From NCBI RefSeq assembly GCF_056712565.1, contig NZ_CM160072.1: a DNA stretch of 64,000 nt, one strand, 5' to 3'. Positions within the stretch are counted from its first letter, which is position 1. Each line of letters starts with the position of its first letter. The position numbers were made by a program. Shown here piece after piece: positions 49,801 through 52,800 of the stretch.

Positions 49801-52800
49801 CCTCCTGAATAGCGATCAGTTTGATTACATGTGTCGCATTGTGCGCGGTCGTGATGATGAACGCATGAACCGCTTCAAGCTGGATGTTACGAAGGCATTC
49901 GCAAAACATCGCGCTACCGAGCCTGTACGCCGTGAATATCTGCCAGGCTATCACGAAAGCCGTGACGGGCTTAAAGCACTGGGCGCAGAACGTCACCATT
50001 ACATCAATCTGGCACGCGCAGAGAACCGTGTTACAGGTCTGGTAACTGGCGAACGAGGCACAGCCAGCGAGCAGCAGTTAGGCTTGCTGATTGTCATGCA
50101 GAAAATCGAACAGGCCGCATTTGAGGAGGCGATACAGAACGGCATGACACCTACCGAAGCAGTGCGGGAGGTTGCCCGACGCATGGAGACATTCGCCAGC
50201 CTGATGACATCTGAGCCGTATCTGGGGGTAAATCATGCTTAAGGATTTCGCCGCACTTATTCCGGTATCACCTGGCATTATTGGCGGACATGAAACAGCC
50301 ATTGTCAGCGCCAGAGCGTTACATAAGGCGCTTGGTGTGAAGCGTGATTTCACTACATGGATTAAAGGGCGTATTGATCAGTACGGATTTAAAAATGGCG
50401 TGGATTTTGAGTTTGTAGAAAATTTGACCTCCCCCAATCCGGTGAGCGCAAAATCTCGCCAACGTGTAGAGCACGACTACCTGAGTACCATCAACATGGC
50501 GAAAGAACTTGCGATGGTCGAGCGTACCGAACAGGGCCGCGCTATTCGTCAGTACTTCATCAAATGCGAGGAGGAGCTACACAAAGTAGCGCCAGTGCGT
50601 TCCGCAGCGTTACGCCGTGAACTGAAAGCCCGTATCACCGTTGCCAGCTACTTTAAGCCGATGTGTGCCGCGCTGGAGGCGTACCGCGCTGAACTGGGTA
50701 AAAACACGCTCCAGCACCACTACACCACGGAAGCCAATATGCTGGCGCGTATCGTGCTGGGTGGCATGACTGCAAAACAGTGGGCGCAGGCGAACGGCAT
50801 CACAGGCGAACCACGCGACCACATGAGCACGCTGCAGCTTGAGCACCTTTCTTACCTTGAGCAGAGCAATATCACGCTGATTGAGTTAGGCCAGGACTAC
50901 CACCAGCGGAAAGCTGAATTAATTCGTCTTTCGCAACGCTGGTTAGCCCGCCGCATGGAGGTGAGCAGCCATGCGTAAACCTGTCTTTTATGCCGGGCGC
51001 ACTGAAATCTCTGTCATTAAATTCGATGACATTCAGGTGCGCATAGTGAGTATCAACGGCGAGCCGTGGTTTGTTGGCGCTGATGTGTGTGCTGCGCTGG
51101 AAATCAGCAATGTTACTGATGCTGTTTCAGTTCTGGATAACGACGAGGTAATGACCCTAGCTTTAACCGAGGGGCATTCCGGTAAGCGTGGTGGTGCCAG
51201 AAGCTGGAATGTTGTCTCTGAATCAGGTTTCTACAAACTGATCGCCCGCAGCCGTAAAGCTTCCACACCTGGCACATTTGCGCACCGTTTCAGTAACTGG
51301 GTATTCCGCGAGGTTATTCCTTCAATCCGCAAAACGGGGAGTTATGGTGTTCCGTTTGCCATGCTGAATGATTTCAGTAAACGCCAGGCTGCATATCAAC
51401 AGGAAGCCAGCAAACGCGGTTACAGGTTACAGCAATGCAAAGAGGCAAAAGATGCACTGGAACGAGAAGAGCGGGCGCTATGGCGTAAATATCAGCCTGA
51501 TTTTCTGGAGGGTGAAAGCAATGTGTAACGATCCGAACGTTACAGAAAGAAAAAGCGCCCCGTTGCTGGATAACAGGCAAAACAAAGGCGACCGGGATAG
51601 GTCGCCAGTGGGAACAAAGGAAATCAAACGCATCGCCAACAATGCCAGATTTGCGGCTGGTGGGCAATGTGATCAGTGTGCTGGCTTGCTGGTGGGCTAT
51701 TCCTGCTCTTTAGCATCGCCATACTGCGATGTTTTCCAGGTATGCGATCCCATTTTTGTGCGCCTGTACTCTTTTAAGAACTTCTCAAGGACAAACGCAC
51801 ATGGCGCAAATCTTTCCTGTTCTTGTTCGCTTACCGCATTTTTGCGTTGTTTTTTCCTGGATGAGGATAATTTCTTTAATGATTTGTCAGTCATCGTAGA
51901 TACCTGTAACCCTGTGCGCCACAGTTCACCGCACCACGGCGCTGGTGATGGTTACTCCTGCTCTTTGGCCTTCCGGCGCTGTTCATATTTTAATTTGCGT
52001 CCACAGGCATCTAAGACCCATGCGGAAAAATTAGCACTAGGATTAGTTAATTTTTCTTGTTCAACACTGGCATCAATCCCATCTATAAGCTCGTGCGGGA
52101 ATCGAATATTTTTCTTTGCTGATTTGTTGTTTGTGTTTCCGCTAGACATTGGTACACCTCACTTAAATGGATTTGATGGGCGCACACAATACAGCAAAAA
52201 AAGTGAGAAGTTAAGTATTGACATGTGCGCACACATGATTTTAATCTGTGCGCACAGTTTGGGTTGCATTGCTCAAATTAAGCAACGCCCCGCAGTGCTC
52301 GCAACACATGCAGGGCGTCTAACCACCAACGATAGAAAGCGTATCGAGGTAGCTATGTTAAATCATACCACACACCCGCAAGGGCGGGACTCGCACAACC
52401 TGAATAAATACATCTGGCGTTTTATCGCCCTGAGCACCGCACAACCACGCGTAATACACATCGAGGCCGCCAGCGAACAGGAAGCCCGTCAGCAATCCCC
52501 GGCTGGCTGCGTGATGGTATTTACTGCCCGCATCCGTCAGGGGGAATACTATGCGTGATGAACGATTTATTCTTCTGGAGCAAAAATTCAGTGAAGCGCC
52601 AAAAAATGAAATTGATGCTCTTTTGCATATCGCGAATATGCTAAAAGTAGCAACGTTCCTTATAGTTTCGAATCTGGAGCATGAAACGGCGTTAGATATA
52701 CTGAACAGTGCTGTCGATTATTCTGAATATATTGCCGAGGATAAATACAGGCAATTACCAGATTTGTTAGCCCATAAATATAAAGAAGAACCTCACACCG

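What the first reader, a model, noticed from the sequence alone, without database searches (positions are those of the whole stretch)
51697..52149. Tandem paralogous 65-aa genes ending in ...AKEQE, one with an RHH-like motif
Two adjacent minus-strand ORFs of identical length share a C-terminal KEQE tail and a central hydrophobic block; their 3' DNA carries a repeated CTCCTGCTCTTT(A/G)GC segment. The upstream one has an RHH-like N-terminal motif (NIRFPHELIDGIDA) and an RBS; a hairpin plus T tract follows the pair. They are plausible repressor/co-regulator duplicates, but the calls rest on short ORFs.
Basis: partly seen in the sequence, partly recalled or inferred. Interest (0 to 1): 0.55.

Follow-up and report, generated by a model that had tools for sequence, protein, structure and literature searches.

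The report
Satellite repressor genes inside antisense frame
The two small genes are not duplicates: the first is a ribbon-helix-helix repressor guarding the replication genes of a phage-satellite island, the second is an unrelated small protein, and both lie backwards inside a long reading frame on the other strand that evolution keeps free of stop codons.

Summary
Both 65-aa minus-strand ORFs, the shared AKEQE tail, the 3' DNA repeat, the RBS and the terminator are real. The paralogy is not: BLASTP finds no alignment and profile-profile probability is 0.2%.

ORF1 (51952-52149) is a YlcI/YnfO (DUF3950) protein with a predicted ribbon-helix-helix fold. Three TGTGCGCACA operators lie over a divergent TTGACA promoter that reads into an Icd-like-to-primase operon. 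In related islands the operator sequence changes with the ORF1 variant, so ORF1 is most likely the immunity repressor. [quoted passage not shown]

ORF2 (51697-51894) is a real but fast-evolving helical protein found almost only in Escherichia. Its function is unknown.

Both genes, their terminator and both promoters sit antisense inside a + strand frame (51521-52558). That frame has its own SD and ATG, overlaps both neighbouring genes by 8 nt, and ends in the Icd-like domain. It is stop-free in every related island fetched individually (Escherichia to Pasteurella) and in 49 of 55 viral contigs. Its amino-acid sequence is unconstrained. I read it as a translated bridge for alpA-driven read-through; this step is inferred. 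New variant of a known kind.

The parts
51952..52149 (-). ORF1: 65-aa YlcI/YnfO (DUF3950) ribbon-helix-helix protein, the proposed immunity repressor
51697..51894 (-). ORF2: 65-aa basic, helical protein of unknown function, not related to ORF1
   Evidence: phrog_21027 E=6e-46; no Pfam, NCBIfam or PADLOC match. 44 clusters, Escherichia only, plus a few divergent relatives in the same gene slot. Replacements are conservative in this frame (-0.09) and random-like in the + frame (-1.28).
52157..52160 (-). Shine-Dalgarno GAGG of ORF1
   Evidence: Read from the sequence.
52177..52186 (.). Operator O3 (TGGGCGCACA), over the -10/+1 of the leftward ORF1 promoter
52224..52233 (.). Operator O1 (TGTGCGCACA), in the spacer of the rightward promoter
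   Evidence: Three of the four matches in the 64-kb window lie within 80 bp.
52247..52256 (.). Operator O2 (TGTGCGCACA), 2 nt after the -10 of the rightward promoter
52218..52245 (+). Rightward promoter P_icd: TTGACA, 16 nt, TTTAAT (inferred)
   Evidence: Read from the sequence. The same -35 TTGAC(A/G) followed at once by an operator recurs in most of the other cassettes inspected. The consensus scanner missed it because the -10 lacks A at position 2.
52186..52214 (-). Leftward promoter of ORF1-ORF2: TTAACT, 17 nt, TATTGT (inferred, weaker match)
   Evidence: Read from the sequence.
51577..51606 (-). Intrinsic terminator of the ORF1-ORF2 transcript (GGCGACC-TATCCC-GGTCGCC then TTTGTTTTGC)
   Evidence: The hairpin is conserved in related islands, where it reads KTKA..GGR in the + frame.
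51688..51714 (.). Copy 1 of the 3'-end repeat (last 5 codons of ORF2, its stop, and Chi GCTGGTGG)
51941..51969 (.). Copy 2 of the 3'-end repeat (last 5 codons of ORF1, its stop, and Chi-like GCTGGTGA)
51521..52558 (+). Long + strand cistron (345 codons; stop-free from 51368). It contains ORF2, ORF1, their terminator and both promoters in antisense and ends in the Icd-like domain.
   Evidence: 0 stops here against 11-23 in the other five frames. SD GGAGG plus ATG, with 8-nt overlaps at both ends. Open in every individually fetched island and in 49 of 55 viral contigs. P(0 stops) multiplied over 11 unrelated promoter cassettes is 6e-14.
52355..52558 (+). Short Icd-like gene (67 aa) with its own GAGG SD, in frame with the long cistron
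   Evidence: NF033153 scores 64.8 bits. PGAP annotation.
52286..52331 (+). Conserved leader hairpin plus TCTAACCACCAACG upstream of the Icd-like start
   Evidence: Alignment A3 and RNAalifold. Sub-threshold Rfam RF00043 match.

Best explanation
The region is the immunity cassette of a PICI-type phage-satellite island (int, alpA-like HTH, Rha/AntAB/BRO-N, cassette, Icd-like, DUF4222, DUF927 primase, SSB, ProQ, PerC) inserted next to yicC.

ORF1 is a YlcI/YnfO ribbon-helix-helix protein. It binds three TGTGCGCACA operators. Through them it shuts the rightward promoter of the Icd-like-to-primase operon and limits its own leftward promoter.

ORF2 is co-transcribed downstream of ORF1, and the transcript ends at the hairpin at 51606-51577. 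It is an unrelated small helical protein. It belongs to the conserved flank, not to the specificity cassette, and its role is unknown. My best guess is an accessory of the quiescent state.

The whole leftward unit is nested antisense inside a + strand cistron (51521-52558). That cistron is translationally coupled to the gene before it and the gene after it. Only its openness is selected, not its amino-acid sequence. I infer that it is a ribosome-carrying bridge. When the helper phage switches on the alpA operon, transcription and translation run through the repressor genes and operators into the replication genes. This overrides the repressor and interferes with its expression.

Shown: gene reality, fold, operator covariation and conservation of the open frame. 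Inferred: binding, repression, co-transcription and the bridge mechanism.
For: ORF1 family and fold:
- NF041551 59 bits and DUF3950.
- AF2 gives coil, helix 19-33, helix 41-64.

Operators covary with the ORF1 variant while the layout (-35, operator, -10, operator) stays the same:
- TGTGCGCACA: window, L006.
- GTGTT(C/T)AACAC: L002, L004, L005, L007.
- TGT(G/A)TA(C/T)ACA: L008.
- GGTAATTACC: L003.
- TACGTACGTA: L018.
- GTGGGCCACAC: CFT073.
- GT(G/A)TCTACACAC: Yersinia.
- GTGTTTAAACAC: Dickeya.

Minus-strand coding signal:
- ORF1 substitutions at positions 1/2/3 are 35/20/80.
- Mean BLOSUM62 of replaced residues, minus frame against plus frame: ORF1 -0.06 vs -1.13, ORF2 -0.09 vs -1.28.
- The random-substitution null is -0.5 to -0.9 in both frames.

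Open + frame:
- 0 stops against 8-29 in the other five frames in 8 E. coli loci.
- Also open in Klebsiella, Yersinia, Dickeya, L018, L019, Pasteurella Pmp7, vB_KppS-Ant and CFT073.
- Open in 49 of 55 IMG/VR loci.
- Shuffle P(0 stops) is 0.02-0.12 for each of 11 unalignable promoter cassettes, product 6e-14.
- SD plus ATG at the upstream gene's end in every locus examined.
- In L018 the frame is not fused to Icd. It stops 10 nt after the Icd ATG, which fits coupling rather than a needed fusion.
- Control: lambda-type phage O276 has a YlcI gene whose antisense frame closes 28-50 nt outside the gene.

Literature:
- In EcCICFT073 AlpA activates its own promoter and a reporter in the next gene, and overexpression starts replication. 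[quoted passage not shown]
Against: - There is no direct evidence here of transcription, translation, DNA binding or repression.
- The leftward promoter is a weak consensus match, and the scanner found no promoter at its threshold.
- The antisense of ORF1 itself is not informative. Given its amino-acid sequence, P(0 stops) is 0.82, and the lambda-type control is also open inside the gene. The case rests on the non-coding flanks and on the other variants.
- The + strand across the cassette is only mildly C>G (skew about -0.1), so a Rho-loading argument is not strongly supported by composition.
- Five complete viral loci close the frame early: L030, L037, L040, L061, L065. A sixth, L050, is cut by the contig end.
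- The ORF2 model is low-confidence (pLDDT 63) with no fold match, so its role is a guess.
- The related loci share ancestry, so counts of loci overstate independence.
Confidence: 0.6

Rival explanations
1. The long + frame encodes a functional long isoform of the Icd-like protein. Its N-terminal extension does something in its own right, such as sensing, tethering or toxicity control. The overlap with the repressor genes is then dual coding of two functional proteins.
For: In most loci the frame is fused in phase to the Icd-like domain. It has its own SD and ATG. [quoted passage not shown]
Against: Replacements in this frame are random-like or worse (-1.13 and -1.28). The middle ~130-200 residues are replaced by unrelated sequence whenever the repressor cassette is swapped. 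L018 is not fused. No family matches the extension. Removing that 'gene' also removes ORF1, ORF2 and both promoters.
Confidence: 0.2
2. ORF1-ORF2 is a type II toxin-antitoxin pair: an RHH antitoxin followed by a small toxin that stabilises the island.
Against: ORF2 matches no toxin family in Pfam, NCBIfam or PADLOC. ORF1 occurs without ORF2 in Klebsiella, Yersinia, Dickeya and Pasteurella islands. The operators sit on the outward promoter of the replication operon. ORF2 type does not covary with ORF1 type.
Confidence: 0.07
3. ORF2 is not a functional protein. The conserved DNA (window 51763-51981 in about 1400 E. coli genomes) is kept for a cis element or merely as a recombination flank.
For: Codon-position periodicity is weak (41/35/50). 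It has two alternative N-terminal and two alternative C-terminal modules. It is restricted to Escherichia. The structure model is low-confidence. PGAP does not call it in several genomes.
Against: Replacements are conservative in the ORF2 frame, and as strongly as for ORF1. The ATG and open frame are kept in all variants, including relatives under 50% identity in the same slot. The motif F.LE.FLK is invariant or nearly so.
Confidence: 0.1
4. One reading: the two ORFs are tandem paralogous repressor and co-regulator duplicates.
For: They have identical length, the same frame, a shared AKEQE tail and a significant ~29-nt repeat at both 3' ends.
Against: BLASTP finds no alignment. The Smith-Waterman score is within shuffles. 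hhalign probability is 0.2%. The predicted folds differ. The phyletic ranges differ. The same frame follows from both genes sitting in the one phase that puts wobble on wobble with the + frame.
Confidence: 0.03
5. Only the + strand long ORF is real, and the minus-strand ORFs are shadow frames.
For: Some depositors and PGAP runs annotate only the long ORF.
Against: ORF1 belongs to a family that also occurs alone in lambdoid phages with no long antisense frame. Its substitution pattern is that of minus-strand coding. Operator covariation needs a cassette-encoded DNA-binding protein.
Confidence: 0.03

Closest known systems
YlcI/YnfO family (NCBIfam NF041551; Pfam DUF3950), known from the E. coli K-12 prophages DLP12 and Qin and from lambda-type phages
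   Same: ORF1 scores above the curated cut-off and aligns over the whole 42-residue model.
   Different: No function is recorded for the family in the held literature. Here it sits in a divergent-promoter cassette with three cognate operators, which gives it a role. The lambda-type copies lie near the right genome end, without the long antisense frame.
Mnt and Arc of phage P22 immI (RHH repressors of the antirepressor promoter); comparison from my own knowledge
   Same: A small RHH repressor is transcribed divergently from the operon it controls. Its operators overlap the promoter hexamers. It lies next to antirepressor-type genes and belongs to a secondary immunity region.
   Different: There is no sequence-level membership: Arc Pfam reaches only E=0.04, and only for the L003 variant. 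There are three operators rather than one, the controlled operon is Icd-like plus primase, and the cassette is nested in an antisense cistron.
Stl/Rpr master repressors of SaPIs and Gram-positive PICIs (PMC6092414)
   Same: Same position and logic: a repressor gene divergent from the excision/replication operon of a phage satellite, placed between the int side and the pri side.
   Different: Stl/Rpr are described there as larger master repressors relieved by a helper-phage protein. Here the protein is a 65-aa RHH. The likely override is read-through from the AlpA-activated operon, not a known anti-repressor contact.
EcCICFT073 and other Gram-negative PICIs (PMC6092414, PMC11773190)
   Same: Same backbone order: int, alpA, cassette, Icd-like, small ORFs, DUF4222, primase, SSB, PerC. 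EcCICFT073 carries ORF2 (57 aa), a YlcI protein (59 aa), its own operators and a 433-aa open + frame.
   Different: The island in the window carries Rha/AntAB/BRO-N and large unknown cargo genes. No capsid or packaging genes are annotated in it. The papers do not mention the minus-strand genes.
P1 immI (c4 antisense RNA, icd, ant); comparison from my own knowledge
   Same: An Icd-family gene heads an operon under a dedicated immunity control, with antirepressor-type genes in the neighbourhood.
   Different: No Rfam C4 match was found. Control here is by a protein repressor. A conserved leader hairpin exists, but its role is unknown.
Type II toxin-antitoxin RHH antitoxins (TacA, ParD, CopG-type)
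   Same: These are the best structural matches, and they share the order small RHH gene then small downstream gene.
   Different: The downstream gene is not toxin-like and is dispensable in other genera.

Membership tests
YlcI/YnfO family (NF041551 / DUF3950) | HMM score above the curated cut-off over the N-terminal 42-residue domain | tested here: met
   ORF1 scores 59 bits against a cut-off of 30, residues 9-56 on model 1-42. Pfam DUF3950 E=1.6e-6. ORF2 has no hit.
Ribbon-helix-helix (MetJ/Arc/CopG) DNA-binding superfamily | N-terminal strand followed by two helices | tested here: met
Ribbon-helix-helix (MetJ/Arc/CopG) DNA-binding superfamily | Dimer whose paired strands read repeated or palindromic operator sites | tested here: inconclusive
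   Three 10-bp palindromes lie in the promoter region, and their sequence covaries with the ORF1 variant in more than 8 cassettes. Dimerisation and binding themselves are not testable with these tools.
Paralogous gene pair (ORF1 and ORF2) | Detectable sequence or profile similarity beyond chance | tested here: not met
   BLASTP finds none at E<=100. The Smith-Waterman score is reached by 26% of shuffles. hhalign probability is 0.2%. Only a ~29-nt 3' segment is shared.
Type II toxin-antitoxin system | Downstream partner belongs to a toxin family | tested here: not met
   No Pfam, NCBIfam or PADLOC hit for ORF2. The fold search is uninformative.
Type II toxin-antitoxin system | Antitoxin and toxin are inherited together | tested here: not met
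   ORF1 homologs have no ORF2 in Klebsiella, Yersinia, Dickeya, Pasteurella or vB_KppS-Ant.
Gram-negative PICI | int, then alpA, then a primase/replication module in one orientation at a specific att site | tested here: met
   PGAP annotation of the identical ExPEC XM island next to yicC. Same order as EcCICFT073.
Gram-negative PICI | Capsid-redirection or packaging genes (capsid, terS/rpp) | tested here: not met
   None is annotated between the primase and dinD. The cargo is three large hypothetical proteins. I therefore call the island PICI-like.
Gram-negative PICI | Induction and transfer by a helper phage | not testable with these tools
   Needs experiments.
P1/P4-type antisense-RNA immunity (Rfam C4) | C4/CI-type RNA upstream of the icd-like gene | tested here: not met
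   No Rfam match at E<=1 in 49000-55500. Only sub-threshold unrelated hits at E<=10 in 52150-52400.
Icd-like protein (NF033153) | 48-residue Icd-like domain above cut-off | tested here: met
   Residues 348-391 of the 396-aa frame score 64.8 bits against a cut-off of 25. The rest of the frame has no match.

The most novel reading that the evidence does not exclude
Gram-negative PICI-type satellites use a 'bridge cistron'. This is a 230-560-codon frame whose product is irrelevant. Its translation lets helper-induced, AlpA-driven transcription cross the repressor genes and operators in antisense, protected from premature termination. That silences the RHH repressor by convergent transcription and fires the replication operon. 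[quoted passage not shown]
Probability: 0.3. Interest if true: 0.8.

Novelty: new variant of a known kind. Interest (0 to 1): 0.6.

Why it matters
**A role for an uncharacterised family.** The analysis gives the YlcI/YnfO (DUF3950) family, including E. coli K-12 y-genes, a testable job: an operator-specific RHH repressor.

[quoted passage not shown] The cassette found here is present in the model island EcCICFT073 and matches DNA in about a quarter of complete E. coli genomes (1406-1425 of 5426).

**An annotation conflict explained.** Public annotation treats this DNA in two mutually exclusive ways. It is read either as small minus-strand genes plus a short Icd-like gene, or as one long 'Icd-like'/'transcriptional repressor' protein. 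The comparative evidence says both strands matter. This affects how knock-outs and transposon hits in the long 'gene' should be read.

**A clean test case for overlapping frames.** If the bridge reading holds, this is a deeply conserved case of a frame selected only to stay open, antisense to functional genes.

Tried and rejected
- **Rfam:** nothing at E<=1 in 49000-55500. At E<=10 in 52150-52400 there are only sub-threshold hits. A C4/CI-type immunity RNA is rejected.
- **Consensus promoter scan:** it found nothing at its threshold. The promoters were read by eye and supported by their conservation across cassettes.
- **PDB sequence search with the ORF1 profile:** no relative found.
- **Possible fourth operator:** CTGTGGCGCACAG between ORF1 and ORF2 is rejected. 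It lies in the conserved flank and is present in L004, whose ORF1 and operators are of another type.
- **'Arc-like' label for the L003, L018 and L019 variants:** only weakly supported (Arc E=0.04; YlcI_YnfO_N 18.7-20.7 bits, below cut-off). I call them divergent RHH-type.
- **Stop-avoidance test inside ORF1 by synonymous recoding:** uninformative for the window's variant, P(0)=0.82.
- **Composition as support for Rho loading:** weak.
- **Literature on YlcI/YnfO/DUF3950 function:** none found. Searches for an RHH repressor or an antisense arrangement in PICIs found none. One apparent lead (PMC10111431) used 'icd' for isocitrate dehydrogenase.
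Full report
**1. What is at the coordinates**

Two ORFs of 65 codons lie on the minus strand at 51952-52149 (ORF1) and 51697-51894 (ORF2). They are in the same frame and 255 nt apart. The window is identical here to E. coli ExPEC XM. In that genome PGAP calls ORF1 a 'YlcI/YnfO family protein' and ORF2 'hypothetical'. The island sits next to yicC, and its genes run in this order: integrase, a hypothetical gene, an AlpA-like HTH, Rha, AntA/AntB, BRO-N, the two minus-strand genes, an Icd-like protein, a hypothetical gene, DUF4222, a DUF927 primase, SSB, ProQ/FinO, PerC and large unknown cargo, ending before dinD.

- The AKEQE tails are real.
- The ORF1 GAGG ribosome-binding site is real.
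- The hairpin plus T tract at 51606-51577 is real.
- The repeated DNA is a 27-29-nt segment with 24 of 27 matches and one gap. It runs from the last five codons over each stop into a Chi (ORF2) or Chi-like (ORF1) motif. Only 0.015% of random window pairs score as high.
- The shared 'hydrophobic block' is not supported.

**2. The two ORFs are not paralogs**

- BLASTP finds no alignment even at E <= 100.
- The best local alignment is just the tail, and 26% of shuffles reach its score.
- Comparing the two family profiles gives probability 0.2%.
- ORF1 relatives occur across Enterobacterales (115 clusters) and in a Pasteurella satellite.
- ORF2 relatives are confined to Escherichia (44 clusters), plus a handful of divergent small proteins.
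- Islands in Klebsiella, Yersinia, Dickeya and Pasteurella carry ORF1 without ORF2.

**3. ORF1 is a ribbon-helix-helix protein and very probably the cassette's repressor**

Family and fold:
- ORF1 passes the curated cut-off of NF041551 (59 bits against 30) and matches DUF3950.
- The AlphaFold model (pLDDT 77) has an extended N-terminus carrying the invariant IRFPHE, followed by two helices.

Promoter and operators:
- The ORF1-to-Icd intergenic region holds three copies of TGTGCGCACA within 80 bp (52177, 52224, 52247). Only four such sites exist in the whole 64-kb window.
- On the + strand a TTGACA (52218) is followed at once by one operator, then by TTTAAT after 16 nt, then by a second operator.
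- The third operator lies over the -10/+1 of a weaker leftward promoter.

The decisive evidence is comparative. Related islands keep this layout but swap the ORF1 variant and the operator sequence together. Examples are GTGTT(C/T)AACAC, TGT(G/A)TA(C/T)ACA, GGTAATTACC, TACGTACGTA, GTGGGCCACAC, GT(G/A)TCTACACAC and GTGTTTAAACAC. That pattern is what a repressor/operator specificity cassette looks like. Binding and repression themselves remain inferred.

**4. ORF2 is real, but its function is unknown**

- Its codon-position periodicity is weak (41/35/50).
- It is mosaic, with two N-terminal and two C-terminal modules around an invariant or nearly invariant F.LE.FLK core.
- Its amino-acid replacements are nonetheless as conservative as those of ORF1. 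Mean BLOSUM62 is -0.09 in its own frame against -1.28 in the opposite frame. Random substitutions give about -0.5 to -0.9 in both frames.
- Relatives under 50% identity occupy the same slot after an ORF1-type gene.
- It has a basic N-terminus and two predicted helices, with no family or fold match.
- Its type does not follow the ORF1/operator type. It therefore belongs to the conserved flank, not to the specificity determinant.
- A K/E/Q-rich tail also occurs in distant ORF2 relatives, so the tail is old in that family.

**5. The opposite strand**

It turns out to be the most unusual feature of the locus.

Conservation of the open frame:
- From 51368 to 52558 this frame has no stop. The other five frames have 11-23.
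- The same holds in all eight E. coli loci, with 0 stops against 8-29.
- It also holds in Klebsiella, Yersinia, Dickeya, two further loci, Pasteurella phage Pmp7, vB_KppS-Ant and EcCICFT073.
- It holds in 49 of 55 IMG/VR contigs found with the ORF1 profile.
- The phase is always the one that puts the wobble positions of both strands on the same base.

What the statistics rest on:
- Inside ORF1 the open frame is not surprising, because P(0 stops) is 0.82 under synonymous recoding.
- A lambda-type phage copy of YlcI is also open inside the gene, but its frame closes 28-50 nt outside it.
- The signal comes from the non-coding parts. In 11 mutually unalignable promoter/operator cassettes, the 129 nt after the ORF1 ATG have no stop in this frame and 1-10 stops in the other two frames. 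Shuffle P(0) is 0.02-0.12 each, with a product of 6e-14.
- The segments between the upstream gene and ORF2 add P values down to 0.0003.

Signs that it is a translated cistron:
- The frame starts with an SD and an ATG at the end of the preceding + gene. In the window this is GGAGG, then ATG at 51521, 8 nt before the BRO-N stop.
- It ends 8 nt after the next gene's ATG, like every other junction in this operon.
- Its amino-acid sequence is not conserved, and its middle is replaced wholesale when the cassette is swapped.
- In L018 it is not fused to the Icd-like domain at all. It stops 10 nt after the Icd-like ATG.

I conclude that selection acts on the frame being translatable, not on its product.

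**6. How it most likely works**

- Quiescent state (inferred): the leftward promoter makes an ORF1-ORF2 transcript that ends at 51606-51577. ORF1 occupies O1-O3, closes P_icd and limits its own synthesis.
- Induction (inferred from EcCICFT073 data): AlpA activates its own promoter and the downstream gene, and this is sufficient to start replication (PMC6092414). Transcription from the alpA operon runs rightward, and the bridge cistron keeps ribosomes on it across the antisense of ORF2 and ORF1 and over the operators into Icd-like and primase.
- Proposed consequences: this would protect the transcript from premature termination, oppose repressor expression by convergent transcription, and bypass or clear the repressed promoter.
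- Main alternative: the long product is a functional Icd-like isoform. [quoted passage not shown] However, that deletion would also have removed ORF1, ORF2 and both promoters.

**7. Comparison with what is known**

- ORF1 is a member of the YlcI/YnfO family. I found no published function for that family.
- It works like Mnt/Arc of P22 immI and sits where Stl/Rpr sits in Gram-positive PICIs. It is not a member of either family.
- The locus is not a C4-type RNA immunity system.
- It fails two defining tests for a toxin-antitoxin pair.
- The island has the Gram-negative PICI backbone, but no capsid or packaging genes are annotated in it.
- EcCICFT073 contains the same cassette. [quoted passage not shown]
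- Searches of the held literature for an RHH repressor or an antisense arrangement in these elements found nothing. Absence from this library does not prove novelty.

**8. Verdict**

- The RHH-repressor reading of ORF1 is supported.
- The paralogy is rejected.
- The opposite-strand frame is a conserved, probably translated cistron that coexists with the two genes.
- Everything beyond sequence, fold prediction and comparative statistics is inference.
- A pair of single-base changes gives a direct test: C51745A and C52096A are silent on the minus strand and nonsense on the plus strand.

Noticed in passing
window 46800-64000 versus 1-46000; sites at 51656, 51688, 51941: Chi sites (GCTGGTGG) are dense in the island and oriented against the chromosome. 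The island's 17 kb has 10 on + and 4 on -. The 46 kb of flanking chromosome has 10, all on -. Two perfect Chi sites lie 32 nt apart just 3' of ORF2, and a 7/8 Chi lies just 3' of ORF1. The one at 51656 is conserved in Klebsiella and most E. coli islands, where it reads AAGGQ in the + frame.
   Followed up: partly
window 52283-52356 (+): The leader of the Icd-like gene holds a hairpin followed by a near-invariant TCTAACCA(C/A)CAACG motif, conserved from Pasteurella to E. coli. Only one base pair shows compensatory change. A full-length but sub-threshold Rfam match to RF00043 (R1162-like plasmid antisense RNA; 18.3 bits against a gathering score of 55, E=0.55 on 251 nt) shares the UAACCACCAAC motif. 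The island also encodes a ProQ/FinO protein.
   Followed up: partly
window 50235-52558 (+): Successive + strand genes are chained by 8-nt start/stop overlaps: Rha/AntAB at 50235/50242, AntAB/BRO-N at 50971/50978, BRO-N/long cistron at 51521/51528, and long cistron/next gene at 52551/52558. In seven of the eight other E. coli islands checked the Icd-like stop also overlaps the next ATG by 8 nt (11 nt in L002; 4 nt in CFT073).
   Followed up: partly
L002, L003, L005, L007, L020, L021 versus L001, L004, L024: Public records annotate the same DNA in two different ways. Some call the minus-strand YlcI gene plus a 67-aa Icd-like gene. Others call a 134-324-aa + strand 'Icd-like', 'transcriptional repressor' or 'hypothetical' protein, usually with the minus genes dropped (L005 and L007 carry a 134-aa extended Icd-like beside them). 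PHROG families 6196, 1743 and 6928, labelled 'transcriptional repressor', match only the Icd-like end.
   Followed up: yes
L024 (NC_004431.1 1377930-1386000): The prototype Gram-negative PICI EcCICFT073 carries the whole module: a 57-aa ORF2, a 59-aa YlcI protein, GTGGGCCACAC operators behind TTGACG, and a 433-aa stop-free + frame running from just after alpA to the Icd-like stop. Its N-terminus contains an in-frame remnant of an Ant/BRO-type gene.
   Followed up: yes
window 57470-64000 (+): Three large cargo genes follow the PerC pseudogene (843 aa, 686 aa and more than 646 aa). They have no PADLOC match and only 'bacteriophage protein' or 'hypothetical' labels. They sit where satellites often carry defence systems.
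   Followed up: partly
L009/L010 (Klebsiella), about 1 kb between AntA and the ORF1 homolog: No gene is called there, yet the bridge frame is open for 561 codons. Its first ~330 residues look protein-like but match no PHROG family.
   Followed up: partly
window 51763-51981: The DNA most widely shared among about 1400 E. coli genomes is neither gene as a whole. It is the last 10 codons of ORF1, the 57-nt spacer and the first 44 codons of ORF2. ORF1 and ORF2 are separated by a single in-frame stop with no further stop before the ORF2 ATG in 7 of 8 E. coli loci.
   Followed up: partly
L022 (phage O276, lambda right end) and other lambda records: Lambda-type phages carry a YlcI/YnfO homolog (43% identity) near the right genome end. 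It is unannotated in many lambda records.
   Followed up: partly
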